Source of the DNA: an uncultured delta proteobacterium
GTDB taxonomy: Bacteria; Desulfobacterota; Binatia; Binatales; Binataceae
Assembly: GCA_963699705.1 (NCBI GenBank)
Contig: CAVOUW010000003.1
Span: 2,161,776 to 2,225,775 of the forward strand
Length of the DNA stretch: 64,000 bases
Direction: 5' to 3'
The position numbers and the translations under genes are program-made. The notes beneath the pieces are model-generated. The model saw only the letters and a list, made by a program, of their open reading frames with translations. It was not told the origin of the DNA and ran no database searches. Below, in pieces: positions 673 through 43,452 of this stretch (position 1 is its first letter; each line of letters begins with the position of its first letter).

Positions 673-854
673 GGGTCGACAGGCAATCTTGCAACGATGC
701 GCGGATAGCGCAATCGAAACCGATAGTGTGGATTAAACGCACGCGCCCCTGATGCAGTCGCACCGCGGCTTGGAATAAGATGATGGGTGCTGGCGGGGTC
801 GGGCGCCGGGCGATTTGCGGGAGGGGTCAGGAGAGCGTGGAAAATCAGGCGAAA

Positions 855-1664
855 ATGCAAGTCAAGTTGATCGACTACGCGCAGCAGCCGTTGGAAAAAC
901 TCTACGCGGCGTTCCGCACCTGCTACTCGTCCGACACGCCGATCGAAGTGTGGGAAAAAATTCGATCCGAGAAGATCACCCACGACAAAATTCGCGAGTT
1001 CATCACCGAGCGGCTGAAGACCGGCCATGCCTCCCCGCTCGAGCAGATTGTTTTCTGGTTCGGAATCGCCAACGTCTCGCGCTCGCTGTCGCATCAGTTC
1101 GTGCGTCATCGGATCGGCATCAGCTTCGAGCAGCAGAGTCAGCGCTACGTGAAATTCAAGCAGGACAAGCTCGCATTCGTGCTGCCGGATTCGTGGTCGC
1201 GCGCGGGGCTCGAGGATGAATTCTCCGACCTGCTTTCGAAGACGTCCGAGCTCTACGCCAAGGCGCTGAAGGCCGGGATTCCGGCGGAGGATGCGCGCTT
1301 CGTGCTGCCCAACGCCGCGCCGACCAATTTTCACGTGATGGTGAATTTCGCCGAGATGCTGCACATCTGCGACCTGCGGCTGTGCGTGCGCGCGCAATGG
1401 GAAATCCGCCGGATGGTCGCGATGATGCGCGCGGAAATCAAGCACGTGCTGCCGGAGATCGCGGTCTTCCTGCAACCGAAATGCGGCGAGAACCGGATGG
1501 GCTACTGCGACGAGTCGCTTGATGAATACCAGAAGTGCCCGCTGAGCAAGGTGCGTCCGCACAAGTCTAGCCTGTTCGATCTTTACGAGCGGTACGGCTC
1601 GCGCAAGGCGCAGGCGCTGGGCGAGGCCGAATATCGCGCGGTCGAGGAAAAAGAGCAGCTCTGA
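855..1664 (+). CDS. thyX: flavin-dependent thymidylate synthase ThyX
   Basis: MQVKLIDYAQQPLEKLYAAFRTCY... with the ThyX signature RHRIGISFEQQSQRY (RHR-x7-S). The ORF opens at 780, but ATG 855 aligns with ThyX N-termini. GTG 835 with an upstream AGGAGA is an alternative start. Confidence 0.85.
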   Translation: MQVKLIDYAQQPLEKLYAAFRTCYSSDTPIEVWEKIRSEKITHDKIREFITERLKTGHASPLEQIVFWFGIANVSRSLSHQFVRHRIGISFEQQSQRYVKFKQDKLAFVLPDSWSRAGLEDEFSDLLSKTSELYAKALKAGIPAEDARFVLPNAAPTNFHVMVNFAEMLHICDLRLCVRAQWEIRRMVAMMRAEIKHVLPEIAVFLQPKCGENRMGYCDESLDEYQKCPLSKVRPHKSSLFDLYERYGSRKAQALGEAEYRAVEEKEQL

Positions 1665-1679
1665 TTTTCCAGGTGCCGC

Positions 1680-2072
1680 GTGAGCGACCAAACATCGATC
1701 GACGACGCGATCGCTTCATTCAATCGAGGCGCGTACTTCGAAGCGGCGGAGATGTTCGAGACCGCGTCGCACGCGGCCGATGACGATCTGAAAGGTCTTA
1801 TCGTCGCGTTCAATCAAATCGCCGCGGCGCTTCATCTGCGCTTCGAGCGCGGCGGACGGCAGGCGTCGATTAACCTGATGTCGCAGGCGATGATCGCACT
1901 CGACGACATGAAGCCCGAGCGCGCCGGGGTTGACGTCGAGCGGCTATGCGCGGAGCTGGCGGCCTACACCGAAGAAGTGCGCGCGACTCCCCGCGACGAG
2001 CGCGACGGCCTCAAGCATCGCGCACGAATTTTCCTGGAGCGCCGCCGCGCGCCGAAGATCAACCGCGTCTGA
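1680..2072 (+). CDS. DUF309 domain protein
   Basis: GTG start. SFNRGAYFEAAEMFE...GLIVAFNQIAAALHLRFERGG matches the DUF309 (PF03745) consensus FNxGxYFEAHExxE...GLIqxAxAlxHxxrgn. Confidence 0.65.
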   Translation: MSDQTSIDDAIASFNRGAYFEAAEMFETASHAADDDLKGLIVAFNQIAAALHLRFERGGRQASINLMSQAMIALDDMKPERAGVDVERLCAELAAYTEEVRATPRDERDGLKHRARIFLERRRAPKINRV

Positions 2073-2077
2073 CCGCC

Positions 2078-2959
2078 ATGCAAATTACCCACGAGCAGAT
2101 CTCTGACGGACTCAAGCGGGCGCGCTACGTCACTAACGAGCGCGTCGAGACTGCGATCTTTCTCGCACTGGCGCTGGAAAAGCCGTTGCTGATCGAAGGT
2201 CCCGCCGGTGCGGGCAAGACCGAAGTCGCCAAGGTGCTCGCGGAAATTCTCCACACCGAGCTCATCCGCCTGCAATGTTACGAGGGACTCGACGAGGCGC
2301 GCGCGCTCTACGAATGGAATTATCAGAAACAACTTTTGCGGATGCAGGCCGACGAGCAGCAGGGCCTGCGATGGGAGGAACTGAGCGAGCACATTTTCTC
2401 GCGCGATTTTTTACTCGAGCGCCCGCTGCTCAAGGCGATCACGTCGCCGAGCCGGGTCGTCCTGCTGATCGACGAGGTCGATAAAGCCGACGAGGAGTTC
2501 GAGGCTTTTTTACTGGAGCTGCTTTCCGACTTCCAGGTGAGCGTTCCCGAACTGGGAACGTTGAAAGCGCGCGAGCGGCCGGCCGTGATTCTGACCTCGA
2601 ATCGCGCGCGCGAACTGTCGGAGGCGCTGCGCCGCCGATGCCTGCATCTGTTCATCGATTTTCCCGGGACCGAGCAGGAGCGGAAAATTATCGAGCTCAA
2701 GGTGCCCGAGCTCGATGCGAAGCTGGCGGCCGAGGCTGCGCGTTTTGTCGGCGCGATTCGCAAGCTCGGACTGCGCAAGCCTCCGTCGATTGCGGAGACG
2801 CTCGACTGGGCGCGCGCGCTGGTGCAGTTGGGCGTGCGCGAACTCGACACCGACGCGGTGCGCACGGCGCTCGGCGTGCTGCTCAAGCATGAAGACGATC
2901 GCGCAAAGGTGGAATCCAAAGCCTCAACGCTCGCGCCGCGCCGCAAGTCCGCTACGTAG
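2078..2959 (+). CDS. MoxR-family AAA+ ATPase (CoxD/CbbQ-like)
   Basis: MQITHEQISDGLKRARYVTNERVETAIFLALALEKPLLIEGPAGAGKT (Walker A), LLIDEVDKAD (Walker B). ATG 2078 sits inside the longer ORF 1946..2959. It is immediately followed by a VWA partner gene. Confidence 0.85.
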   Translation: MQITHEQISDGLKRARYVTNERVETAIFLALALEKPLLIEGPAGAGKTEVAKVLAEILHTELIRLQCYEGLDEARALYEWNYQKQLLRMQADEQQGLRWEELSEHIFSRDFLLERPLLKAITSPSRVVLLIDEVDKADEEFEAFLLELLSDFQVSVPELGTLKARERPAVILTSNRARELSEALRRRCLHLFIDFPGTEQERKIIELKVPELDAKLAAEAARFVGAIRKLGLRKPPSIAETLDWARALVQLGVRELDTDAVRTALGVLLKHEDDRAKVESKASTLAPRRKSAT

Positions 2960-2965
2960 ATTCGG

Positions 2966-4231
2966 ATGGCGCGGCTTCGCGATCAGCTGGTCAATTTTAT
3001 CGCGTCTCTGCGAGATGCGGGCGTCAGAATTTCGGTTGCGGAATCGATCGATGCGATGAATGCGGTCGCGGCGGTTGGGCTCGAGCGCGCGAGGATGCAT
3101 GAGGCGCTGGCGGCGGCGTTGATTAAGGACGAAGCTGACCGCGCAGTCTTCGACGAAGCGTTCGAGTCTTTTTTCAAAGCTAGTCGTACCAATCGCGGAG
3201 AGCATCCAGATCAACGCGGCGAGCAGGTTTCGGCTGCTGCGGGACGTGGCCGGCCGGGAGAAAATCCAACTCCGCGCGACGATGCGCAATTGCGAACGGA
3301 TCAGCCGCGTGACGGCGAGCAGTCAAGCGATCGCGATGAGAAAAGGTCGCCGTCAGAAGCGAAGCCGTCGAAGAAAACGAAGACAGCGCATCGTGATGAC
3401 GCGGAAGGCAAGGACGCTGATCGCAAATCCGATGAAGCGCGCGGCCGCGAAGAGCAGGATGGGGCGGACTCGCGCGAAGAGTCGCGCACGCCTGGTATCG
3501 ACGCGGCGCGCGTTGCGAGGCTCCGCGCGATCGAGCGCAGGCCGTTCGACAATTTCTCTGACCTGGACTACGACGAGGCGCGCGACGCGCTCGCGCCGCT
3601 GATTCGACGCTTCCGGATTCGCCTCGGACGCCGGCTGCGTCTCGCGAAGACCGGACGCATCGATTTTCGCCGCACGATTCGCGCGGCGATGCAGCGCGGC
3701 GGCGCGATGATCGATCTCAACTTCCGCGCGCGGCGCCCGCGGCATGTCGATCTCATGATCCTCGCCGACATCTCGGGTTCGGTCCGCTACGCCGCGCAGT
3801 TGATGCTCGAATTGATGGCGGGCGCGCGCGGATGCTTCCGCCGCGTCAGCAGTTTCGTTTACGTGGACCATCTGGCGGAGGCGGACTTCGAGCAGGGCCA
3901 CCTGGTTATGACGCCGGCGCTGGACCTGTATGCGCGATCGGATTTCGGCCGCGTGCTCGGCGAGCTGTGGAAGCGCCGGACCGGGTTGCTGACGCGCAGC
4001 ACGATCGTCGTGATCATGGGCGACGGCCGCAACAACCGCTTGCCCGCGCGCGCCGACGTAATCCGCGAGATCGCGCGTACCTGCCGCGCCGTAGTGTGGC
4101 TGAATCCCGAAGATCCTGCGCGCTGGGGTACCGGCGACAGCGCAATCAAACAATACGCACGCGAAGTGAAGCTGCTGGTACCGTCGCGAAACCTGCGCGA
4201 GCTGCAGCTCGGCCTGAGCGCGATCGGCTAG
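2966..4231 (+). CDS. VWA domain protein, CoxE-like (partner of the MoxR ATPase)
   Basis: C-terminal VWA with the MIDAS-like DLMILADISGSVRY and IVVIMGDGRNN. A central charged low-complexity linker (DRDEKRSPSEAKPSKKTKTAHRDDAEGKDADRKSDEARGREEQDG). The start lies 7 nt after the ATPase stop. Confidence 0.8.
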   Translation: MARLRDQLVNFIASLRDAGVRISVAESIDAMNAVAAVGLERARMHEALAAALIKDEADRAVFDEAFESFFKASRTNRGEHPDQRGEQVSAAAGRGRPGENPTPRDDAQLRTDQPRDGEQSSDRDEKRSPSEAKPSKKTKTAHRDDAEGKDADRKSDEARGREEQDGADSREESRTPGIDAARVARLRAIERRPFDNFSDLDYDEARDALAPLIRRFRIRLGRRLRLAKTGRIDFRRTIRAAMQRGGAMIDLNFRARRPRHVDLMILADISGSVRYAAQLMLELMAGARGCFRRVSSFVYVDHLAEADFEQGHLVMTPALDLYARSDFGRVLGELWKRRTGLLTRSTIVVIMGDGRNNRLPARADVIREIARTCRAVVWLNPEDPARWGTGDSAIKQYAREVKLLVPSRNLRELQLGLSAIG

Positions 4232-4237
4232 CGCCGA

Positions 4238-5743
4238 TCAGAAATCGAACAGCTCGCGCATCTTGGCGAGCAGCCATCGATGCGGGCCGCCTTTGCCGTC
4301 GAGCGCGTCGCCGGATGAGAGTTTTTCCAGGCGGTCGCGGTTTCGCGCGGCAATAATATCGCCGATGCTGGCGGCGGCGTCGGGATGCTCCTTGAAGAGG
4401 CGGGTGAAGCCCTCGCGGTCCATTTCGATCACTTCCACGTCGGTGAGCGCGCGCACGTTTGCGTTGCGCGGCTCTCCGGTCATCAGAGCCATCTCGCCGG
4501 TGACGACGCCGCGGCCAATCTCGGCGAGATGTCGAAGCTGGCCGTCGGCGGTATGACCGATGACTTCGGCCCGTCCGCTGCGCACGATGAACATCGACTC
4601 GCCGGGTTCGCCGATGCGCACCAGCATCTCGCCCGCGCCGAACTGGCGCACCGAGACAGTCGGCACCAGCATGCGAAGCTCGTCGTCGCTGAGACCGCGC
4701 AGCCAATCGACCTGGCGCAAGTCGGTTATCAGCTCGCGCTCGAACTGCGCGTCGGCCTTTTCGTCTTCATCGCGGCCGGCGTCGCGCACATGGACGGTGC
4801 GGGTCGGGAACGGAATCTCGATCGAATGCCGCCGCAGCGCGTACCAGAGGCTCGACGCGACGCGATCTTTGACGCGCTCCTGCGCGCCAAAATCCGCAAT
4901 CCAGTACTTGATCCGATATTGAATTGCGAAATCGCCGTAGCTATCTACCTGGACTTCCGGCGCCGGCTCGCGGAGCACTTGCGGCACGTCACGCAGCAGG
5001 GTCATCACGACCTCGCGCACGTGATTGGGCGGCACACCGTAGCTGATCCCGACCGTGATTTCGTCCCGCACAAAGCCGGTCGCGTAGTTGAACAGGGTGT
5101 CCTTGGCGATCACCGAGTTAGGAATCTCGAGACGCTCGTTGGCGCGGGTCACGATAGTGGTGGCGCGCCATGCGATTCCCTTGACCTGCCCGACGTGAGT
5201 GCCGCTGCGAATCCAGTCGCCCGGCTCGAACGGACGCCCCATCGAAAGCGACAGGCCGCTAAAGATGTTGCCGAGGGTTTCCTGCAGCGCAAAACCAAGG
5301 ACCGCCGCGAAGACCGTGGTGGTGGTCAGGATCGAAAGCGGCTGCACCCCGAAGTCGGTGTACAGCACCACCATCACGACCACGAACCACAACGTCAGCA
5401 TCAGCAGGTCCTTGCTGATGGTCGAGAAATGGACCTTGCCGCGGCGCGTGATCGAATCGACGAACTCGAGCACCAGCCGGATCACGCCGAACAGGAAAAT
5501 TACCAGCGCCGCGACCGCAACCTTCTGGCCGACCAACTCGTTGGGAATGAAGCGCGAGCCGGCGTCGATCAATGCGCTGCCCGACAGCAGCAGGAAGGTC
5601 GTGGCAGTTACCGCGCGCTTGCGCCGGCGCACGGCGAAGGCGCCCAGCAAGCCGATCAGCACGAGCACGCTTTCGAAAATCGTGCGTACGTCGCGCGGCA
5701 GCACGTCAATTTGCAGCATCGACTGAAGAGGCGTCGCCACCAT
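4238..5743 (-). CDS. MscS-family mechanosensitive channel fused to a C-terminal cyclic-nucleotide-binding domain
   Basis: N-terminal TM helices plus the MscS beta-domain (GDWIRSGTHVGQVKGIAWRATTIVTRANERLEIPNS). The C-terminal cNMP domain carries GEMALMTGEPRNANVRA. Confidence 0.85.
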   Translation of the reverse strand: MVATPLQSMLQIDVLPRDVRTIFESVLVLIGLLGAFAVRRRKRAVTATTFLLLSGSALIDAGSRFIPNELVGQKVAVAALVIFLFGVIRLVLEFVDSITRRGKVHFSTISKDLLMLTLWFVVVMVVLYTDFGVQPLSILTTTTVFAAVLGFALQETLGNIFSGLSLSMGRPFEPGDWIRSGTHVGQVKGIAWRATTIVTRANERLEIPNSVIAKDTLFNYATGFVRDEITVGISYGVPPNHVREVVMTLLRDVPQVLREPAPEVQVDSYGDFAIQYRIKYWIADFGAQERVKDRVASSLWYALRRHSIEIPFPTRTVHVRDAGRDEDEKADAQFERELITDLRQVDWLRGLSDDELRMLVPTVSVRQFGAGEMLVRIGEPGESMFIVRSGRAEVIGHTADGQLRHLAEIGRGVVTGEMALMTGEPRNANVRALTDVEVIEMDREGFTRLFKEHPDAAASIGDIIAARNRDRLEKLSSGDALDGKGGPHRWLLAKMRELFDF

Positions 5744-5746
5744 CGG

Positions 5747-6919
5747 TCAGATCCCCGCGGCCACCACGATTTCGTCGAGCAGTTTTATCGGATCGAAATA
5801 CTCGGCCGCTATCTCGCGGGCAACGCGCGCATGATGCGGATAGTCGGCATTGATTTGTGCGATCGCGTCCACCGCTTCGTCCGCTGTGTCGAATCCAAAG
5901 AGACCGGCACCGGTCGGGATGAATTTTTCAAACCCGGTCCGCTGGGTAACCACCGGACGTCCAGCGGCCAGGTAGCATACCGTGCGATCGCTGAACCATC
6001 CGGTGCGCGGCCGCACGTAGATGTCCTTGGCGACGGTGAACTCGCCGCGCGACCGGCTGATGTACTCGCGGTAGGCGTCGATATCGAGCGACATCGGCAC
6101 TACCGGCGTAATCGTGAAGCCGCCGGCAAGCGCGCGGTCGTAGTCGGGGCCGCTACTCAAGTTGGTGGCGAGCTCAATCGGCTGCTTCGCGCGCGCCGCA
6201 ACCTCGAGCATCTTGCGGAAATTCAAATGCTTCGACCAGTAGTACGTCTCGCCGGCAATTACCATGTCGTTGCCGTTATTCTGCCAGGTGCCGACAGTCG
6301 TGAACGCAGCCGGCTCCGCGGGGCCAACCCCCGGATGCCACTCGTCGAGATTTACCGGCGGACGCGTGGGATGCCAATCGCGGCCGCCCGTAGGGAGCAG
6401 GCAGTCCGGCGCGCCGATATTGTAGCAATACGTGAAAAGCAATTTGTGCGAATTCGCAAACGCCACCGCGGTCGGAATCTTCCGCGCCAGCTCGAGCTGC
6501 ACGACGCCGGGGTCGGTCTCGAGGTACACCAGGCAGCGGCTGCGCTGATGCTCCTCGCGCGGCTCGGTCGCGCCGCAAAGATTGATCACGGCGTCGGCGT
6601 CGCGAATCAATTCACCGCATCTTTCGCGCGACATGCCGACGTACTCTTCTTTCGCCGAATCGAAGAACGCCCAGCGGTCGCCGAAGCCATAGCGCTCGAG
6701 CACGCCGCCCAGCACCTTGAGATTTCGCGACGGATCCGGAGTGCTGGTTTCGATCGTCGGGTCGTAAACGTGAGCGCAGTGATCCTCGATATAGAAAACC
6801 TCGAGGCCGAGCTGCCGAAACCCGATCAGATGATGAAGCAATTGCCAGATTACCCCGGCGAACGGGTAACGCGCCGCCAGATGCAGCACGACGACTTTGC
6901 CCTTGCGCTTGCCGTTCAC
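5747..6919 (-). CDS. putative glycosyltransferase (GT-B fold, GT1/GT4-like)
   Basis: 390 aa. The C-terminal half (WFSDRTVCYLAAGRPVVTQRTGFEKFIPTGAGLFGF) resembles the nucleotide-sugar-binding domain of GT-B enzymes. The family is not firmly recognised. Confidence 0.5.
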   Translation of the reverse strand: MNGKRKGKVVVLHLAARYPFAGVIWQLLHHLIGFRQLGLEVFYIEDHCAHVYDPTIETSTPDPSRNLKVLGGVLERYGFGDRWAFFDSAKEEYVGMSRERCGELIRDADAVINLCGATEPREEHQRSRCLVYLETDPGVVQLELARKIPTAVAFANSHKLLFTYCYNIGAPDCLLPTGGRDWHPTRPPVNLDEWHPGVGPAEPAAFTTVGTWQNNGNDMVIAGETYYWSKHLNFRKMLEVAARAKQPIELATNLSSGPDYDRALAGGFTITPVVPMSLDIDAYREYISRSRGEFTVAKDIYVRPRTGWFSDRTVCYLAAGRPVVTQRTGFEKFIPTGAGLFGFDTADEAVDAIAQINADYPHHARVAREIAAEYFDPIKLLDEIVVAAGI

Positions 6920-6956
6920 CGTTTGGGTCGAGATCTTAGTCCGTGCTCCTGCGACA

Positions 6957-8773: not shown

Positions 8774-8816
8774 GTGCCCGCCCCGCCCCGAGAAGGAACT
8801 TGGGAACTGATTGTAT

Positions 8817-8873
8817 GTGAAACCCGCGGTGGGTTTCACGCTTCCTTCGGCAGGGGTGACCCCTGCACCCAGT
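8817..8873 (+). repeat. intergenic double-hairpin repeat, family 1, full copy A
   Basis: GTGAAACCCGCGGTGGGTTTCACGCTTCCTTCGGCAGGGGTGACCCCTGCACCCAGT. Hairpin 1 is GAAACCC/GGGTTTC and hairpin 2 is CAGGGGT/ACCCCTG. Near-identical copies are at 10729, 12186(rc) and 43377(rc). Confidence 0.8.
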
Positions 8874-9054: not shown

Positions 9055-9080
9055 ACTGGGTGCAGGGGTCACCTCTGCCG
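9055..9080 (-). repeat. family 1 repeat, half copy (hairpin-2 half) in inverted orientation
   Basis: ACTGGGTGCAGGGGTCACCTCTGCCG is the reverse complement of CGGCAGAGGTGACCCCTGCACCCAGT. Together with copy A it forms 26-bp inverted termini around about 180 bp. Confidence 0.65.
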
Positions 9081-9107
9081 CGGGTGCGGGGCGCGCAGCC
9101 CCGCGTC

Positions 9108-10565: not shown

Positions 10566-10728
10566 AAAAATGTCCTCCTCAACTAGAAAATAAAAAAAGA
10601 GCCCGCGGTTTTTCCGCGGGCCCAATCCAGCCGTCAGTTGTTACACGCAGTCCGTTTAATCAGATGCGCCATAACCGACCCTAACAAGAGCCGCGCACCC
10701 GATCAATACGGGGATTAGGAGATTGAAA

Positions 10729-10784
10729 GTGAAACCCTCCGCGGGTTTCACGCTTCCGCGGCAGGGGTGACCCCTGCACCCAGT
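10729..10784 (+). repeat. family 1 repeat, full copy C
   Basis: GTGAAACCCTCCGCGGGTTTCACGCTTCCGCGGCAGGGGTGACCCCTGCACCCAGT, in the divergent region between guaB and the desaturase. Confidence 0.8.
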
Positions 10785-11009
10785 GAGTCGAGTTCGCGCG
10801 ACTAGCGGGAGCTTGATTAGAAACTTCGGGCGTTCGAGTATCACAGTCCGACTAGCCCCTCGCCTTCGACCAGATTTTCGGGACCGACCACCATCTCCGG
10901 GCTATAAGTTTTTGGATGGGCTCCATCATCAGTACGTTCGGGCTTGGGTTTTGGCGAGAACAAGCGGTCGAAGGGAGACATCGAGAGCATTCGCTGTCGA
11001 GATCGAGAT

Positions 11010-36450: not shown

Positions 36451-37593
36451 CTAGAGTCGCATCGGCATGACGACGTAGGTGTACTGCTGATCCGTCTCGG
36501 TTCTGATGACGCCGGGGCTGACGTCGTCGCTTAGTCCGAGTTCTACTGTCGAATCCGCTTCCTGCGAAATTACGCCGAGGGCTTGCTGTACGTATGACGC
36601 GTTGAATCCGATCGCGAATTCTTCGCTCTTGAAATCGACGTCGAGCGATTCGCTGGCTTCCCCGGTTTCGGGACTCGTCGATGAGACCGTCAGCGTCCCG
36701 GCCGATAGCGCGAATTTGACGCCGTGATATCGCTCGCTGGAGAAGATTGCCGCGCGTTTGATTGCCGCAAACAGCAGATCACGCTTTACCGTGATTTTGT
36801 ATTTCGACTGCTTGGGGATTACACCGCGATAGTCAGGAAATTCGCCTTCGACCAGCCGCATCGAGACTTCAGTCGCGCCGCGCTTCAAATACGCGAGCTG
36901 ACCTTCGAGGCTCAGGCGCACTTCCGGTTCGGTGCCGACATCCAGAATCTTGCGCAGTTCCGCGAGACCCTTTCGCGGAATGATCGCGCCGCTTGGCATC
37001 GCGAATCCCGGCACCTCGCGCTCGATCATCGCGAGGCGATGCCCATCGGTCGCGACCATCCGAACCGCTCCGGGAGCGTTGGACTCGACAAACACGCCGC
37101 TCAAGTTGTAGCGCGCTTCATCGGGACTGACCGCGAAGATCGTTTTGTCGATCATCTGGGCCAGCACTGTCGCTGGGATCGCCAGTTCGGCCTTGAGCTG
37201 TTTCTTCGCTGCGCCAGAATCCTTGCCGGTGCTCTGACTTGGCATCGCGGGGAAGCTGCGCGGATCGAGGCCCATCATTTTGAACTTCGCGCGCCCGCAT
37301 TTCAGCTCGACCCAATCGCCATCAAGCGTCGTCAGCGCGACTTCCTCGCCTTCGGTCTCGCGCACGATTTCAAAAAGTTTGCGCGCGTTGAGGGTCAGAC
37401 TTTTTTCCTTGCCGCTACACGCGACCTGGGTGCGAATTCCGACTTCGAGGTCGGTGGCGCTGAGCGTCAGCGCGTTTCCGTTTGGCTCGAGCAGGACGTG
37501 ACCGAGGATCGGAACCGTCGTGCGCCGTTCCACGATGCCCTGGACGAGTCCCAAACCGCTAAGCAGCGAAGCGCGCTCGATTGCGAGTCCCAT
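36451..37593 (-). CDS. dnaN: DNA polymerase III subunit beta (sliding clamp)
   Basis: MGLAIERASLLSGLGLVQGIVERRTTVPILGHVLLEPNGNALTLSATDLEVGI…three-domain clamp. About 380 aa. Confidence 0.9.
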   Translation of the reverse strand: MGLAIERASLLSGLGLVQGIVERRTTVPILGHVLLEPNGNALTLSATDLEVGIRTQVACSGKEKSLTLNARKLFEIVRETEGEEVALTTLDGDWVELKCGRAKFKMMGLDPRSFPAMPSQSTGKDSGAAKKQLKAELAIPATVLAQMIDKTIFAVSPDEARYNLSGVFVESNAPGAVRMVATDGHRLAMIEREVPGFAMPSGAIIPRKGLAELRKILDVGTEPEVRLSLEGQLAYLKRGATEVSMRLVEGEFPDYRGVIPKQSKYKITVKRDLLFAAIKRAAIFSSERYHGVKFALSAGTLTVSSTSPETGEASESLDVDFKSEEFAIGFNASYVQQALGVISQEADSTVELGLSDDVSPGVIRTETDQQYTYVVMPMRL

Positions 37594-37833
37594 GAATTGT
37601 TAGCCCGTCTTCCTATTCCGGATCTTTAGATCTCTAAAAAAGAATAGCAGTAATAGTAGGAGTTGTGGATTTGTTGATGGAGCCCGCAAGCGACCGAAAT
37701 TGAACGCCGATCGATCGCTGAAAAGCTGTCGGCGAAAAAACGGCTACTCGACAGGGCCGGCCGTCCGCGCACCGACCCTGTCGATAGCTCCAGGTTTATG
37801 CTCCCCTCGTCCACAGCCTCCCCCACAATCGAT

Positions 37834-39258
37834 TCACGCCGCATTCGCGCGGATCGATTTAAGCTCGCGCTCGATTTTCTCGATCGAGAGCCGAAAAGCC
37901 GAATCACTGGTCACGCGCCGCATGATCAGGTTGTACGCGTGAATCACCGTCGAATGGTCGCGCCCGAAATGTTCGCCGATGGTCGGAAACGAGCTGTCGG
38001 TCAGCTTGCGGCAGAGATACATCGCGACCTGGCGGCAGAATGCGATGTGCTGCGTGCGCTTCTTCGACTTCAAATCCGTCAGCCGGATATGGAAAAAATC
38101 CGCGACGGTTTTCTGGATCGATTCGACGTCGGGCTTCGCGTCGTGATTGCGAATCAAATCCTGTAGCGCCTGCCGCGCGAAGTCCACGGTGATTGCCGAT
38201 TGGTTGAGCGACGCGAGCGCCGCCAGCCGCGTCAGGCATCCCTCGAGCTCGCGAACATTCGACGAAACGCTCTGCGCGATATACATCGCGACTTCGGGCG
38301 CCAGTCGCAGGTTTTCGAGCACCGCCTTCTTCTGCACGATCGCGACGCGGGTCTCGAGGTCGGGCGGTGCGATGTCCGCGATCAAGCCCATCTCGAAGCG
38401 ATTGCGCAGCCGCTCCTCGAGCCCCGGAATTTCGCGCGGCACTTTGTCCGAGGTCAGGATGATCTGATGCCGTTCGGCATGGAGCGCGTTGAACGTGTGG
38501 AAGAATTCTTCCTGCGTGCGCTCGCGACCGGCCAGGAATTGCACGTCGTCGAGGATCAAAGTATCAACGCGTCGAAACTTTTCGCGAAACTCGTTCATTT
38601 TGTCGCGCCGCAGCGAGCCGATCAGCTCGTTCATGAAAATCTCGGCCGGCATGAACAGCACTTTCCGCGGCCGCTCGCCGACGGCGTAGATATGGTGCCC
38701 GATCGCGGTCACCAGGTGCGTCTTGCCCAGGCCGACCCCGCCGTAGATGAAAAGCGGGTTGTATTTTTCGCCCGGCTGATTGGCGACCGCCTGGGCCGCG
38801 GCATGCGCGAACTGATTGGCCGATCCCACCACGAACTCCGCAAAACTGTAGCGGGCGTTCAGGGTCGGATGACGATCTCCACGCGGCGCAGCCGCCGTGG
38901 TCGCGCGATTGGTCGCATACGCCTTGCCGTTACCGTTCCCGTTAGCATGGCCGTTGCCATTTGAATGGCCGTTGGCATGACCATTGGCCGGACGTTGTGG
39001 CGGCGTCACGGCCGCAGCATTCTCGCCCAGCGTCAGCCGCACCTCGATTTCGCCGCCGGCCTCGGCCGACAGCGCGGAGCGCATCATGCTCATGTAGCGA
39101 TCGTTGATCCAATCGCGAAAAAATCGGTTGGGCGCTTCGACCGTGACCGTCGAACCTTGATGAGCGACAAAATTAAGCGGCCCAATCCACGTCTCGTACC
39201 CGACCTGACCGAGCTCATCGCGCATACGGTCCGCAGCCCGCTGCCATAGTCCATTCAT
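37834..39258 (-). CDS. dnaA: chromosomal replication initiator protein DnaA
   Basis: [28 protein letters not shown]…[10 protein letters not shown] (Walker A)…DDVQFL…a C-terminal DNA-binding domain (HSTVIHA). ATG at 39256..39258 is preceded by GGGGGAA. The ORF opens at GTG 39276. Confidence 0.9.
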
Positions 39259-39345
39259 ATCGTTCCCCCTGACCACCCCGGAAGCCCAAGCCCGCTCCGG
39301 AAATTAGCGCGCCGGCATCGATCCGGCGCGAATTACGCACAGTCT

Positions 39346-39365
39346 TATCCACACCTGTGGATAAG
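39346..39365. promoter_or_regulatory. inverted pair of perfect DnaA boxes (TTATCCACA cc TGTGGATAA)
   Basis: Exact matches to the DnaA-box consensus at 39346..39354 and its reverse complement at 39357..39365, 88 nt upstream of dnaA. Confidence 0.75.
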
Positions 39366-39604
39366 CGGTTATTCCTTCGTTACAACCAACAATTTGACGG
39401 CACGACACGCCGGACTATCAACTCATCCGGGTTACGATCGGTTCTGTTAGGGTGAAAATTTTGTTCGACGATAGGGGCGATATACACGCGCTTCGGAGCC
39501 ATAGATCACGCGCCGCGAAATGAACCTGTCAGTGAAGATTGGTTCTTGTAAGTACGAAGTGTGCGGCCAAGTGAACGTGATAAACTTATTTCGTGGCGAG
39601 GACA

Positions 39605-39850
39605 AGTGCGCAAAAAAATTCGTCGCTATACGCGCGGAACGTAAAGGAAATTTCCCTGATCAGTGATCGCGCGCAGTGCGCACAAAATTTTGCATCGATC
39701 ATGCGATCGCGCATATCTGCTCTGGGAGCCATCATGCGCGATCGCAAATTTTCGCGTCTCGACGCAAATTTGTCACGCGATCGACGCGCGCGATCAAATT
39801 TTTCTTCGCGATCGAAAAAAAAATTTCGATCCCACGAGATCTTCGAGCAT
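39605..39850. repeat. AT-rich array of GATC-containing 13-mer-like repeats (candidate DNA-unwinding element of oriC)
   Basis: At least 6 copies of (C)GCGATCG(C/A)AAATTTT-like units (GTGCGCAAAAAAATTCG, GTGCGCACAAAATTTTGCATCGATC, GCGCGATCGCAAATTTTCG, GACGCAAATTTGTCACGCGATCG, GCGCGATCAAATTTTTC, GCGATCGAAAAAAAAATTTCGATCC). There are 8 GATC sites within about 150 bp. Confidence 0.55.
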
Positions 39851-39855
39851 TCGCG

Positions 39856-41154
39856 GTGACCTCACGAAAAAAATCAGATGAACTCGTCAAGCGCGCCAGT
39901 GTTAACATTCCTGGTGCGGTGAATTCTCCCGTGCGCGCGTGGAAGGCAGTTGGTGCTGCTCCAATTTTCATCGAGAGTGGCAACGGTGCAACAATCACTG
40001 ACGCCGACGGCAACAATTTTCTCGACTACGTTTGCTCCTACGGACCCGCGATTCTCGGACATGCTGATCCACGCGTCATGCGCGCGATCGCAGAGCAATC
40101 GCGATTGGGCTTGGGTTTCGGCGCGCCGACGCGGCTCGAAGTTGAGCTCGCCGAATTGATCTTGTCGTCGATCGAATGTGCACAAAAAGTAAGATTGGTT
40201 ACTTCGGGAACCGAAGCTGGTCTCACTGCGATCAGACTCGCGCGCGCCGCCACCGGTCGCGAGAACATAATTAAGTTTGACGGGTGCTATCACGGTCATA
40301 GTGACTCGATGCTGGTGCGCGCCGGTTCGGGCGGGATGACTCTTGGTCAACCCGACAGCGCTGGAGTTCCGGCCGCGCTCGCTGCGATGACGATGGTTGC
40401 GCGATATAACGCGATTGAAACGGTCGAAGGTTTATTTCGCGCCGCGCCTGGGAAAATCGCTGCCGTGATCGTCGAGCCCGTCGCCGCTAACATGGGCGTA
40501 GTAAATCCTGACCCGGGTTCACTGAAAGCGCTGGCCGAAATCGCTCACAACAACGGTGCGCTGCTGATCTGTGACGAAGTTATATCGGGGTTCCGACTCT
40601 GCTTCGGCTCCGTTGCCGAAAGCATGGGCATCGCGCCCGACTTGATCATGCTCGGAAAAATAATCGGCGGCGGGATGCCTGTGGGCGCGATCGCCGGCCC
40701 GTCGAAGATCATGGACCTGCTCGCGCCGGTCGGTCCGGTTTATCAAGCGGGCACATTGTCGGGAAATCCGCTTTCTGTTCGCGCCGGTCTCGAAACACTT
40801 CGCATCCTCAAAGACAGCAATCCATACGCCGCGCTTGACGACGCCGGCGCCCGACTCCAAGCCGGCCTCCGCGATGCTCTGAAAAAAACCGGACAGCCTG
40901 GATGCGTTAATCGCGCCGGCTCCCTACTGACGATGTTCCTCGGGCCCGAGCGGGTGCGCGACGCCGACGAAGCTCGCACGTCCGACGCCGCGAAGTTCGC
41001 TAAATTTTTCCATGGCATGATCGATCGCGGCATCAATATCCCGCCGTCGCAATTCGAAGCTATGTTCATCTCGACCGCACACACCAACACAGACATCGAC
41101 CGCACGATCGCTGCCGCCAACGAATCTCTGCGGGATCTCTCGCGAGCGACATGA
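39856..41154 (+). CDS. hemL: glutamate-1-semialdehyde 2,1-aminomutase
   Basis: (GTG)TSRKKSDELVKRASVNIPGAVNSPVRAWKAVGAAPIFIE…GTEAGLTAIRLARA…the PLP-lysine region GKIIGGGMPVGA. The start is uncertain (see findings). Confidence 0.85.
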   Translation: MTSRKKSDELVKRASVNIPGAVNSPVRAWKAVGAAPIFIESGNGATITDADGNNFLDYVCSYGPAILGHADPRVMRAIAEQSRLGLGFGAPTRLEVELAELILSSIECAQKVRLVTSGTEAGLTAIRLARAATGRENIIKFDGCYHGHSDSMLVRAGSGGMTLGQPDSAGVPAALAAMTMVARYNAIETVEGLFRAAPGKIAAVIVEPVAANMGVVNPDPGSLKALAEIAHNNGALLICDEVISGFRLCFGSVAESMGIAPDLIMLGKIIGGGMPVGAIAGPSKIMDLLAPVGPVYQAGTLSGNPLSVRAGLETLRILKDSNPYAALDDAGARLQAGLRDALKKTGQPGCVNRAGSLLTMFLGPERVRDADEARTSDAAKFAKFFHGMIDRGINIPPSQFEAMFISTAHTNTDIDRTIAAANESLRDLSRAT

Positions 41155-43376: not shown

Positions 43377-43430
43377 GGTGCAGGGGTTACCCCTGCCGAA
43401 GGAAGTTTGAAACCCACCGCGGGTTTCAAA
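43377..43430 (-). repeat. family 1 repeat, copy E (reverse orientation)
   Basis: Its reverse complement is TTTGAAACCCGCGGTGGGTTTCAAACTTCCTTCGGCAGGGGTAACCCCTGCACC. It sits between the convergent atpE and Smr genes. Confidence 0.8.
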
Positions 43431-43452
43431 TTAAATTGCTAAAGTTCCACGC

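What the first reader, a model, noticed from the sequence alone, without database searches (positions are those of the whole stretch)
39259..39855. Candidate oriC: perfect DnaA-box palindrome plus an E. coli-like GATC-rich AT 13-mer array
Directly upstream of dnaA (with dnaN downstream) lies TTATCCACAccTGTGGATAA, two consensus DnaA boxes in inverted orientation. About 250 bp further on sits an AT-rich block built of repeated GATC(G/A)(C)AAATTTT-like units, with 8 GATC in about 150 bp. This is reminiscent of the GATCTnTTnTTTT 13-mers of the enterobacterial DUE. GATC clustering at an origin outside Gammaproteobacteria would suggest Dam-like methylation and sequestration control, or an unrelated GATC-binding factor.
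Basis: partly seen in the sequence, partly recalled or inferred. Interest (0 to 1): 0.6.

Follow-up and report, generated by a model that had tools for sequence, protein, structure and literature searches.

The report
DnaA-box spacer beside a likely origin
The stretch upstream of dnaA in this uncultured soil bacterium (Candidatus Binatus) really holds a conserved DnaA-binding palindrome and a GATC-rich block, but the textbook DNA-opening element lies 1.6 kb away between dnaA and dnaN, and strand composition does not confirm that replication starts here.

Summary
The window's only two perfect DnaA boxes form the palindrome at 39345-39364. The block 39640-39855 holds 10 GATC against 3.1 expected, the densest cluster in 64 kb.

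The genome is Candidatus Binatus (Binataceae). In ten relatives the palindrome plus a third adjacent box is invariant. Only one GATC column is near-invariant, and the AT-rich core 39790-39830 is missing outside the genus. The block has no DnaA-trio, is not the least stable DNA, and lies about 290 bp or more from the boxes.

The canonical unwinding module sits in the dnaA-dnaN spacer, read on the minus strand: two boxes 8 nt apart, ACTC, CTA CTA TTA CTG CTA, then the window's least stable 50-mer. It is the only such match in 64 kb.

So the finding is most likely the upstream DnaA-box half of a dnaA-flanking origin and/or the dnaA operator, next to hemL control DNA.

One caveat is serious. Third-codon-position GC skew has the same sign on both sides of dnaA for at least 25 kb. 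In 60 comparison loci, all 27 with such a module show a switch.

Dam or SeqA could not be tested.

The parts
39259..39855 (.). dnaA-hemL divergent spacer (the finding): conserved non-coding control region
   Evidence: Alignable across 10 Binataceae genomes whose DnaA is 72-100% identical. Indels are not multiples of 3.
39333..39341 (+). Weak DnaA box TTACGCACA (2 mismatches), 3 bp from the perfect box and in the same orientation
   Evidence: AATTACGCACA is conserved in most relatives.
39345..39353 (+). Perfect DnaA box TTATCCACA (left arm of the palindrome)
   Evidence: Unchanged in 9 of 10 sequences; L002 carries one mismatch in this arm.
39356..39364 (-). Perfect DnaA box (TGTGGATAA on the + strand; right arm)
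   Evidence: L001 carries one mismatch in this arm.
39413..39421 (+). CTATCAACT, with the core TATCAAC invariant in all 10 sequences. Possible low-affinity DnaA box (3 mismatches; the C6A variant also replaces a palindrome arm in L001).
   Evidence: The assignment as a DnaA box is inference.
39577..39606 (+). Conserved blocks GTGATAAAC (resembles an extended -10, TGnTAAACT, facing hemL) and GACAAG. No factor assigned.
   Evidence: The promoter reading is inference; the consensus scan did not call it.
39640..39855 (.). GATC/AAATTT-rich block directly upstream of hemL. GATC at 39658, 39665, 39697, 39705, 39740, 39779, 39792, 39810, 39828 and 39838. A(n)T(n) tracts centred at 39650, 39687, 39749, 39768, 39799 and 39820.
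   Evidence: No conserved RNA fold. No Rfam match.
39719..39745 (.). Conserved dyad GCTC-NNN-GAGC followed by CATCnTGCGCGATCGC. It carries the one near-invariant GATC (39740, 8 of 10).
   Evidence: The stem never varies, so it is neutral evidence for an RNA hairpin. The one-base centre in some relatives fits a DNA dyad better (inference).
39790..39830 (.). Most AT-rich core of the block (GATCAAATTTTTCTTCGCGATCGAAAAAAAAATTTCGATC). Present only in the genus-level relatives.
   Evidence: gapped in L092, L091, L094, L001, L002. (best 50-mer of the spacer is in the top 0.46% of the window, not the least stable).
39856..41154 (+). hemL (glutamate-1-semialdehyde 2,1-aminomutase), GTG start
   Evidence: TIGR00713, 545.7 bits against a 527.3 cutoff, profile covered from position 1. 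Relatives have ATG at the aligned codon.
37834..39258 (-). dnaA
   Evidence: TIGR00362. Identical to P0001.
37664..37680 (-). Tandem DnaA boxes CCATCAACA (37672-37680) and AAATCCACA (37664-37672), starting 8 nt apart. This is the spacing of the box pair next to the trios in Firmicutes.
   Evidence: for example L015 and L038 have the same TTxTCxACA / AAATCCACA pair.
37636..37663 (-). 4-nt spacer ACTC, then DnaA-trio-type repeats CTA CTA TTA CTG CTA (TTC TTT TTT)
   Evidence: only hit in 64 kb, none in 30 shuffles. (identical in 4 relatives, a variant in L094). Compare the C. difficile trio quoted in PMC7561715.
37622..37671 (.). Least stable 50-mer of the whole window: the candidate DNA unwinding element. 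Contains AGATCT at 37628-37633.
   Evidence: rank 1 of 50-bp windows. (AGATC[T/A/C] kept in all 10 relatives).
36451..37593 (-). dnaN
   Evidence: TIGR00663.

Best explanation
The 597-bp dnaA-hemL spacer of this Candidatus Binatus genome is a conserved control region with two separable parts.

(1) The dnaA-proximal end carries three packed DnaA boxes, TTACGCACA-n3-TTATCCACA-n2-TGTGGATAA, 87-118 bp upstream of the dnaA ATG. A fourth invariant near-box lies 68 bp further on. DnaA is inferred to bind here. This would repress or tune its own promoter. It would also serve as the upstream box cluster of a dnaA-flanking, two-part origin of the Bacillus, Clostridioides or Helicobacter kind.

(2) The hemL-proximal GATC/AAATTT block is not the unwinding element. 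It is most likely bent, protein-bound control DNA for hemL, or an accessory element, built from A(n)T(n) tracts, a conserved dyad and GC-rich CGATCG linkers.

The element that fits DnaA-driven opening lies in the dnaA-dnaN spacer. It has two boxes 8 nt apart, a 4-nt spacer, DnaA-trio repeats, then the least stable DNA of the window. DnaA bound to the boxes would extend as an oligomer onto the trio strand and melt the adjacent AT-rich DNA.

Shown: the sequence elements, their statistics and their conservation. Inferred: DnaA binding, unwinding, and any origin activity. Origin activity remains open because strand composition does not switch here.
For: - These are the only perfect DnaA boxes in 64 kb and in each 13-21 kb relative locus.
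- The three-box cluster and TATCAAC are invariant across DnaA identities of 72-100%.
- The box-plus-trio scan hits only 37672(-) in the window and nothing in 30 shuffles.
- The module is identical in L082, L085, L086 and L089, and L094 has a variant. It aligns in all 10 sequences.
- Calibration: in 80 diverse dnaA loci the same scan hits 7.3 times per 10 kb of strand in the 450 bp after dnaA, against 0.15 elsewhere. 47 of 51 of those hits are on the dnaA strand, with the same 8-nt box offset and 4-nt spacer.
- 37622-37671 is the least stable 50-mer of the window.
- The published criteria for the module are met (PMC8287927; PMC7561715).
- In relative L098, the rpmH-rnpA-yidD-yidC-jag cluster and the hemL-atp genes run away from dnaA-dnaN, the classical origin gene layout.
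- The GATC block lacks a trio, lacks a conserved RNA fold, and loses its AT core outside the genus.
Against: - Strand-independent third-position GC skew is negative on the + strand both left (-0.09, 26 genes) and right (-0.126, 17 genes) of dnaA. Both differ from zero at P<0.001 and do not differ from each other.
- No relative shows a negative-to-positive switch.
- The skew is still negative 19 kb beyond dnaA in L098. It is about -0.06 at a site 400 kb away on the 3.24-Mb contig.
- In 60 comparison loci, all 27 with a box-plus-trio module after dnaA show the switch within 6 kb. The 'same sign on both sides' pattern seen here is shared by Enterobacterales, whose origin is displaced from dnaA.
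- The upstream cluster has only 3-4 boxes, which dnaA autoregulation alone would explain.
- No promoter was confidently placed.
Confidence: 0.5

Rival explanations
1. The origin lies elsewhere, upstream of dnaA on the hemL side and at least 25 kb away, as in Enterobacterales. The spacer would then hold only the dnaA operator or promoter and the hemL promoter. The dnaA-dnaN box-plus-trio module would be a retained relic or a dnaN control site. The GATC cluster would parallel the GATC-rich dnaA promoter region of E. coli rather than an origin.
For: - GC3 skew has a uniform sign across 7-64 kb, whatever the gene strand. The same holds in relatives and 19 kb further out.
- The 'both flanks positive in dnaA orientation' class of the 60-locus calibration contains Pantoea and Erwinia.
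- Upstream-of-dnaA GATC clusters rank highest in Erwinia, Binataceae L002 and Pantoea.
- From prior knowledge: the E. coli dnaA promoter is GATC-rich and is sequestered by SeqA.
Against: - None of the 16 calibration loci without a switch has a box-plus-trio module, while the Binatus genomes keep a canonical one.
- That module coincides with the least stable DNA of the window.
- No other DnaA-box cluster was seen in 64 kb or near rpmH in L085.
- Gene orientation diverges at dnaA.
Confidence: 0.33
2. The spacer is a self-contained oriC whose unwinding element is the GATC-rich 13-mer-like array. Initiation would be controlled by Dam-like GATC methylation and sequestration, or by another GATC-binding factor.
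For: - The GATC excess is real: 10 against 3.1, P<2e-4.
- The excess is present in 7 of the 10 sequences compared.
- It is stronger than in the Dam-positive Enterobacterales loci of the calibration set.
- Loose 13-mer matches are about 7-fold enriched in the spacer.
- GATC also recurs in the dnaA-dnaN unwinding region, 1-4 per roughly 80 bp, with AGATC invariant.
Against: - Only one GATC column is kept in at least 8 of 10 sequences; most are lineage-specific.
- Units lie in both orientations and form no tandem array.
- The block is about 290 bp or more from the boxes, has no trio and is not the least stable DNA.
- The AT core is absent outside the genus.
- GATC in the window as a whole is at 0.91 of its trinucleotide-based expectation, with no methylation or restriction signature.
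- No adenine-methyltransferase motif ORF is present in about 300 kb examined.
- There is no skew switch.
Confidence: 0.07

Closest known systems
Two-part (bipartite) origins flanking dnaA with a basal unwinding system: B. subtilis incAB/incC, C. difficile oriC1/oriC2, H. pylori oriC1/oriC2
   Same: - A DnaA-box cluster lies upstream of dnaA.
- Downstream, before dnaN and on the dnaA strand, lie tandem boxes 8 nt apart, a 4-nt spacer, CTA/TTA trios and then AT-rich DNA.
- The trio sequence CTCCTACTATTACTGCTA is close to the C. difficile CACCTACTACTATTACTACTA.
   Different: - The upstream cluster has only 3-4 boxes, against 9-19 in clostridial oriC1 (PMC7561715).
- The upstream neighbour is hemL, not rpmH.
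- The genome is 60% G+C and from an uncultured phylum.
- No GC-skew switch accompanies the module, unlike all 27 comparison loci that carry it.
- Function is untested.
E. coli-type oriC with GATC-bearing 13-mers and Dam/SeqA sequestration
   Same: - A dense GATC cluster: 10 in 184 bp, against 11 in 245 bp in E. coli (the E. coli figure is from prior knowledge).
- GATC is joined to A/T runs.
- AGATCT occurs at the edge of the block and in the dnaA-dnaN unwinding region.
   Different: - There are no three same-sense tandem 13-mers next to a strong box.
- GATC positions are poorly conserved.
- Most sites are CGATCG in GC-rich linkers.
- Dam and SeqA are not demonstrated.
dnaA autoregulatory operator (DnaA boxes in the dnaA promoter region). 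In E. coli this region is also GATC-rich and sequestered.
   Same: High-affinity boxes lie within about 120 bp of the dnaA start and are invariant across relatives. A GATC cluster lies upstream of dnaA, and the skew has the same sign on both sides of dnaA.
   Different: The GATC block lies 400-600 bp from dnaA and abuts hemL. No promoter was mapped. A canonical unwinding module is present next to dnaA, which E. coli lacks.

Membership tests
DnaA-dependent chromosomal origin (oriC), applied to 39259-39855 | Cluster of at least 3 DnaA boxes with mean spacing under 100 bp (Mackiewicz criterion as quoted in PMC7561715) | tested here: met
   There are 2 perfect boxes and 1 two-mismatch box within 32 bp, plus a 3-mismatch invariant site 68 bp away. 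It is the highest-scoring box cluster of the window, but a minimal one.
DnaA-dependent chromosomal origin (oriC), applied to 39259-39855 | AT-rich unwinding element adjacent to the boxes | tested here: not met
   The AT/GATC block starts about 290 bp from the boxes. Its best 50-mer is only in the top 0.46% of the window for instability. Its core is absent in 5 of 10 relatives.
DnaA-dependent chromosomal origin (oriC), applied to 39259-39855 | Location at the origin-type (negative to positive) GC-skew switch | tested here: not met
   GC and GC3 skew are negative on both sides over 7-64 kb. The same holds in relatives. The full replicon was not available, so where the global minimum lies is unknown.
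DnaA-dependent chromosomal origin (oriC), applied to 39259-39855 | Origin-proximal gene context (dnaA, dnaN, rpmH-rnpA-yidC) | tested here: met
   dnaA and dnaN are adjacent. The rpmH-rnpA-yidD-yidC-jag cluster lies 7-11 kb away in relative L085/L098 but is not in this window.
Basal unwinding system (DnaA box + spacer + DnaA-trios; PMC8287927), applied to the dnaA-dnaN spacer 37594-37833 | DnaA box with at most 2 mismatches, optional second box with at most 4, spacer of 0-16 bp, at least 3 trios with a central A (T on the box strand) | tested here: met
   AAATCCACA has 2 mismatches and CCATCAACA has 3. The spacer is 4 nt. Eight consecutive NTN triplets follow, and 4 of the first 5 are CTA or TTA.
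Basal unwinding system (DnaA box + spacer + DnaA-trios; PMC8287927), applied to the dnaA-dnaN spacer 37594-37833 | AT-rich, easily melted DNA immediately beyond the trios | tested here: met
   37622-37671 is the least stable 50-mer in 64 kb. The module region is 62% A+T.
Basal unwinding system (DnaA box + spacer + DnaA-trios; PMC8287927), applied to the dnaA-dnaN spacer 37594-37833 | DnaA- and trio-dependent strand separation | not testable with these tools
   This needs purified DnaA and a strand-separation or P1 nuclease assay.
Basal unwinding system, applied to the finding itself (39259-39855) | Box + spacer + trios | tested here: not met
   The scan found no hit. The only loose run, TTA TTC CTT after the palindrome, is not conserved in L082, L086 or L089.
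Dam/SeqA-controlled enterobacterial-type origin | Statistically enriched GATC cluster | tested here: met
   10 observed against 3.1 expected, with none of 5000 shuffles reaching 10. It is the window maximum.
Dam/SeqA-controlled enterobacterial-type origin | GATC positions conserved among relatives | tested here: not met
   Occupancy is 8/10 at 39740, 6/10 at 39705, 5/10 at 39697, and 4/10 or less at the rest.
Dam/SeqA-controlled enterobacterial-type origin | Three same-sense 13-mers GATCTnTTnTTTT flanking a strong DnaA box | tested here: not met
   Matches carry only 2-3 mismatches, lie on both strands and are not tandem.
Dam/SeqA-controlled enterobacterial-type origin | Genome encodes a GATC adenine methyltransferase and a hemimethylated-GATC binder | not testable with these tools
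   No (D/N)PPY ORF with a methyltransferase motif I occurs in the window or in about 230 kb of related loci.
dnaA autoregulatory operator | High-affinity DnaA boxes overlapping or next to the dnaA promoter | tested here: inconclusive
   The boxes lie 87-118 bp upstream of the ATG and are invariant. No consensus promoter was found between them and dnaA.

The most novel reading that the evidence does not exclude
Binataceae, a lineage far from Gammaproteobacteria, might use GATC methylation to time initiation or dnaA expression. Supporting hints: a GATC cluster upstream of dnaA as strong as or stronger than in Dam-positive Enterobacterales; an invariant AGATC inside the dnaA-dnaN unwinding region; and a dnaA locus that, as in E. 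coli, does not sit at the strand-composition switch. A linked oddity is a fully canonical unwinding module kept next to dnaA without the skew switch that accompanied it in all 27 comparison loci that carry such a module.
Probability: 0.1. Interest if true: 0.7.

Novelty: new member of a known kind. Interest (0 to 1): 0.35.

Why it matters
Nothing is published on replication origins in Binatota, a widespread phylum of uncultured soil bacteria (one search found no relevant paper).

This analysis gives a concrete, testable map:
- a three-box DnaA operator upstream of dnaA;
- a Firmicutes-like box-plus-trio unwinding module between dnaA and dnaN.

This extends the 'ancestral unwinding module' idea to another phylum.

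It also flags a real conflict. In this clade, the module and strand-composition skew disagree, which did not happen in any of 27 comparison loci. If that holds on the full replicon, one of three things is true. The origin moved while its unwinding module was kept, or skew here is not set by replication from this site, or the hemL-side flank has an unusual history.

The GATC cluster matters only if methylation is shown. The long-read data behind these MAGs could settle that directly.

Tried and rejected
Replaced by a protein search plus contig look-ups.
- Whole-replicon skew: the 3.27-Mb contig carrying the identical DnaA could not be read. The 211-kb contig starts about 30 bp before the window, so no extension to the left was possible. 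The look-up of a right-end protein found no record.
- Walking by mnmE and yidC homologues: this gave one distant sample (400 kb away, skew about -0.06) and a 19-kb extension in a relative. Neither showed a switch.
- Tandem repeat array: none found.
- Known RNA or a structured hemL leader: no Rfam hit at gathering threshold. The only other match was a sub-threshold AsdA hit inside dnaA. The consensus fold was -1.6 kcal/mol with no covariation.
- CtrA sites, GANTC sites and IHF sites: none in the spacer. Fis-like pattern: 2 matches.
- Terminator-like hairpin at 39779-39795: not conserved in L085.
- Promoter-like site at 39776-39748 (-): its -35 hexamer is not conserved.
- GATC avoidance or excess across the window as a methylation signature: the observed/expected ratio is 0.91 from trinucleotide composition, which is uninformative.
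- Positive-skew stretch at 0.75-6.95 kb as a terminus or origin: it covers only five genes, and the gene before it is negative again. It reads as a local segment rather than a replichore boundary.

Full report
**What is there**

The window comes from a Candidatus Binatus genome (Binataceae, phylum Binatota).
- Its DnaA is identical to cluster P0001, which is held on contigs of 3.27 Mb and 211 kb.
- Close homologues are named Candidatus Binatus or Binataceae by their sources.
- Genes: dnaN 36451-37593 (-), dnaA 37834-39258 (-), hemL 39856-41154 (+, GTG start). hemL scores above the TIGR00713 cutoff and is covered from profile position 1.
- The finding's coordinates are exactly the divergent dnaA-hemL spacer.

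**Check of the observation**

- TTATCCACAccTGTGGATAA lies at 39345-39364. These are the only two perfect DnaA boxes in 64 kb.
- GATC is common in this genome: 603 copies, one per 106 bp.
- Even so, the 10 copies in 39658-39841 are the window maximum; the next best 200-bp window has 8.
- The block exceeds its own dinucleotide shuffles: 3.1 expected, and none of 5000 shuffles reached 10.
- AAATTT is more clustered still, with 6 of the window's 16 copies in 216 bp.
- The block is not a tandem array. Its GATC-A(n)T(n) units lie in both orientations.
- The E. coli 13-mer pattern matches only at 2-3 mismatches on both strands. The spacer holds about 7 such matches against about 1 expected.

**Comparative evidence**

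I fetched the locus from nine other Binataceae genomes whose DnaA is 72-94% identical and aligned the spacer.

Invariant or nearly invariant elements:
- TTACGCACA-n3-TTATCCACA-n2-TGTGGATAA. The first 9-mer is a third box with 2 mismatches.
- TATCAAC at 39414.
- GTGATAAAC, GACAAG and AAAGGAAATTT.
- A dyad GCTC-NNN-GAGC followed by CATC..GCGATC.

The box pair is also the only perfect DnaA box in each relative's 13-21 kb.

The GATC excess in the hemL-proximal block recurs in 7 of the 10 sequences at P<0.03, with counts of 3-7 in the relatives. Only the column at 39740 is occupied in 8 of 10; 39705 and 39697 are occupied in 6 and 5.

The most AT-rich core (39790-39830) is simply absent from the five more distant genomes.

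No conserved RNA structure or Rfam family explains the conservation.

**Where the unwinding element more likely is**

A duplex-stability scan put the least stable 50-mer of the whole window at 37622-37671, inside the 240-bp dnaA-dnaN spacer. The best 50-mer of the finding's spacer is only in the top 0.46%.

Read on the dnaA strand, the dnaA-dnaN spacer is CCATCAACA/AAATCCACA (two boxes starting 8 nt apart), then ACTC, then CTA CTA TTA CTG CTA TTC TTT TTT, then AGAGATCTAAAGATCC.

This meets the published definition of the basal unwinding system:
- box with at most 2 mismatches, spacer of 0-16 bp, at least three trios with a central A (PMC8287927);
- it closely resembles the C. difficile trio 5'-CACCTACTACTATTACTACTATGA-3', which also lies in a dnaA-dnaN spacer (PMC7561715).

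A stricter scan required 4 of 5 triplets to match [CT]T[AT].
- It finds this site and nothing else on either strand of the 64 kb, and nothing in 30 shuffles.
- The module is identical in four relatives, and L094 has a variant. It aligns in all ten sequences, with AGATC kept in every one.

As calibration, I ran the same scan on 80 diverse dnaA loci.
- It hits 7.3 times per 10 kb of strand in the 450 bp after dnaA, against 0.15 elsewhere.
- 47 of 51 of those hits lie on the dnaA strand.
- They show the same 8-nt box offset and 4-nt spacer.

The finding's own spacer has no such module.

**The strand-composition problem**

- Plain skew is negative from about 5 kb to 64 kb, with no inflection at 39.5 kb.
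- Per-gene third-position skew, expressed on the + strand, is negative for genes of both orientations. It therefore reflects a strand property, not a coding property.
- It is -0.09 for 26 genes left of dnaA and -0.126 for 17 genes to the right. Both differ from zero at P<0.001, and they do not differ from each other.
- No relative shows a negative-to-positive step.
- The skew stays negative 19 kb beyond dnaA in L098. There, hemL, the atp genes and rpmH-rnpA-yidD-yidC-jag all run away from dnaA.
- A sample 400 kb away on the 3.24-Mb contig is still weakly negative, about -0.06.

In 60 comparison loci, 44 show the origin-type switch within 6 kb of dnaA.
- All 27 with a box-plus-trio module after dnaA do so.
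- None of the 16 without a switch has the module (Fisher P=1e-5).
- The 'same sign on both sides' class includes Pantoea and Erwinia. Their origin is known, from prior knowledge, to lie about 40 kb upstream of dnaA.

The Binatus genomes are therefore outliers: a canonical module with no switch. I could not obtain the full replicon, so this stays unresolved.

**The GATC question**

- Over the whole window, GATC is at 0.91 of its trinucleotide-based expectation. It is neither avoided nor favoured.
- Most sites in the block are CGATCG within GC-rich linkers between A(n)T(n) tracts.
- Among 76 diverse loci, the strongest GATC clusters upstream of dnaA are in Erwinia, Binataceae L002 and Pantoea. 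The window's cluster (Poisson P=3e-5) is stronger than any of these.
- This is a genuine resemblance to Dam-positive bacteria. In E. coli, however, such a cluster marks the dnaA promoter as well as oriC (prior knowledge).
- No adenine-methyltransferase-motif ORF is present in the roughly 300 kb I could read. That is weak evidence for a 3.3-Mb genome.

**Verdict**

- The spacer's conserved three-box cluster is very likely a DnaA-binding site. It could be the dnaA operator, the upstream half of a dnaA-flanking origin, or both.
- The GATC/AAATTT block is not a convincing unwinding element. It is better read as bent, protein-bound control DNA next to hemL.
- The best unwinding candidate is the box-plus-trio module in the dnaA-dnaN spacer.
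- Whether this dnaA-flanking region fires is about an even bet, because skew disagrees.
- As a kind of system it is a new member of a known one. The skew conflict and the GATC cluster are the two points worth following on the complete genomes and their long-read methylation data.

Noticed in passing
window 37594-37833 (dnaA-dnaN spacer): A canonical DnaA box pair, DnaA-trio repeats and the least stable DNA of the window. This lies outside the finding's coordinates and is the better candidate for origin unwinding.
   Followed up: yes
window 8804-8870 (-), 9065-9084 (+), 10721-10786 (-), 43377-43431 (+); L085 3322-3396: A roughly 55-nt intergenic repeat with two hairpins (GCAGGGGTCACCCCTGC ... 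GTGAAACCCnnnnnGGGTTTCAC). It looks REP- or MITE-like. One copy sits at the synteny breakpoint after atpE.
   Followed up: partly
window 750-6950: This is the only stretch with positive third-position GC skew on the + strand (five genes, thyX to a mechanosensitive channel gene). The gene before it and everything after it are negative. It looks like a small inverted or foreign segment.
   Followed up: partly
L085/L098 versus window ~43365: In a relative whose DnaA is 94% identical, mnmE and rpmH-rnpA-yidD-yidC-jag follow atpE, 5-11 kb from dnaA. These genes are absent from the 64-kb window. On the 3.24-Mb contig, mnmE lies about 400 kb from dnaA. The region next to dnaA has therefore been rearranged within the genus.
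   Followed up: partly
window 39719-39745: A dyad GCTC-NNN-GAGC followed by CATCnTGCGCGATCGC is conserved in all ten Binataceae. It has no known binding factor, and it holds the one near-invariant GATC.
   Followed up: partly
window 39856 versus L081 gene call: The public gene call for hemL on the identical contig (358 aa) starts about 220 bp too late. The conserved N-terminus and the TIGR00713 alignment point to the GTG at 39856 (432 aa).
   Followed up: yes
window 38663-38745 (+): A sub-threshold Rfam match to AsdA, the antisense RNA of Salmonella dnaA (23 bits against a gathering score of 52). It most likely reflects conservation of the dnaA coding sequence.
   Followed up: no
L085 331-2035 / L098 10001-11705: yidC is split into three ORFs in this long-read contig. 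This suggests frameshift errors or a pseudogene.
   Followed up: no
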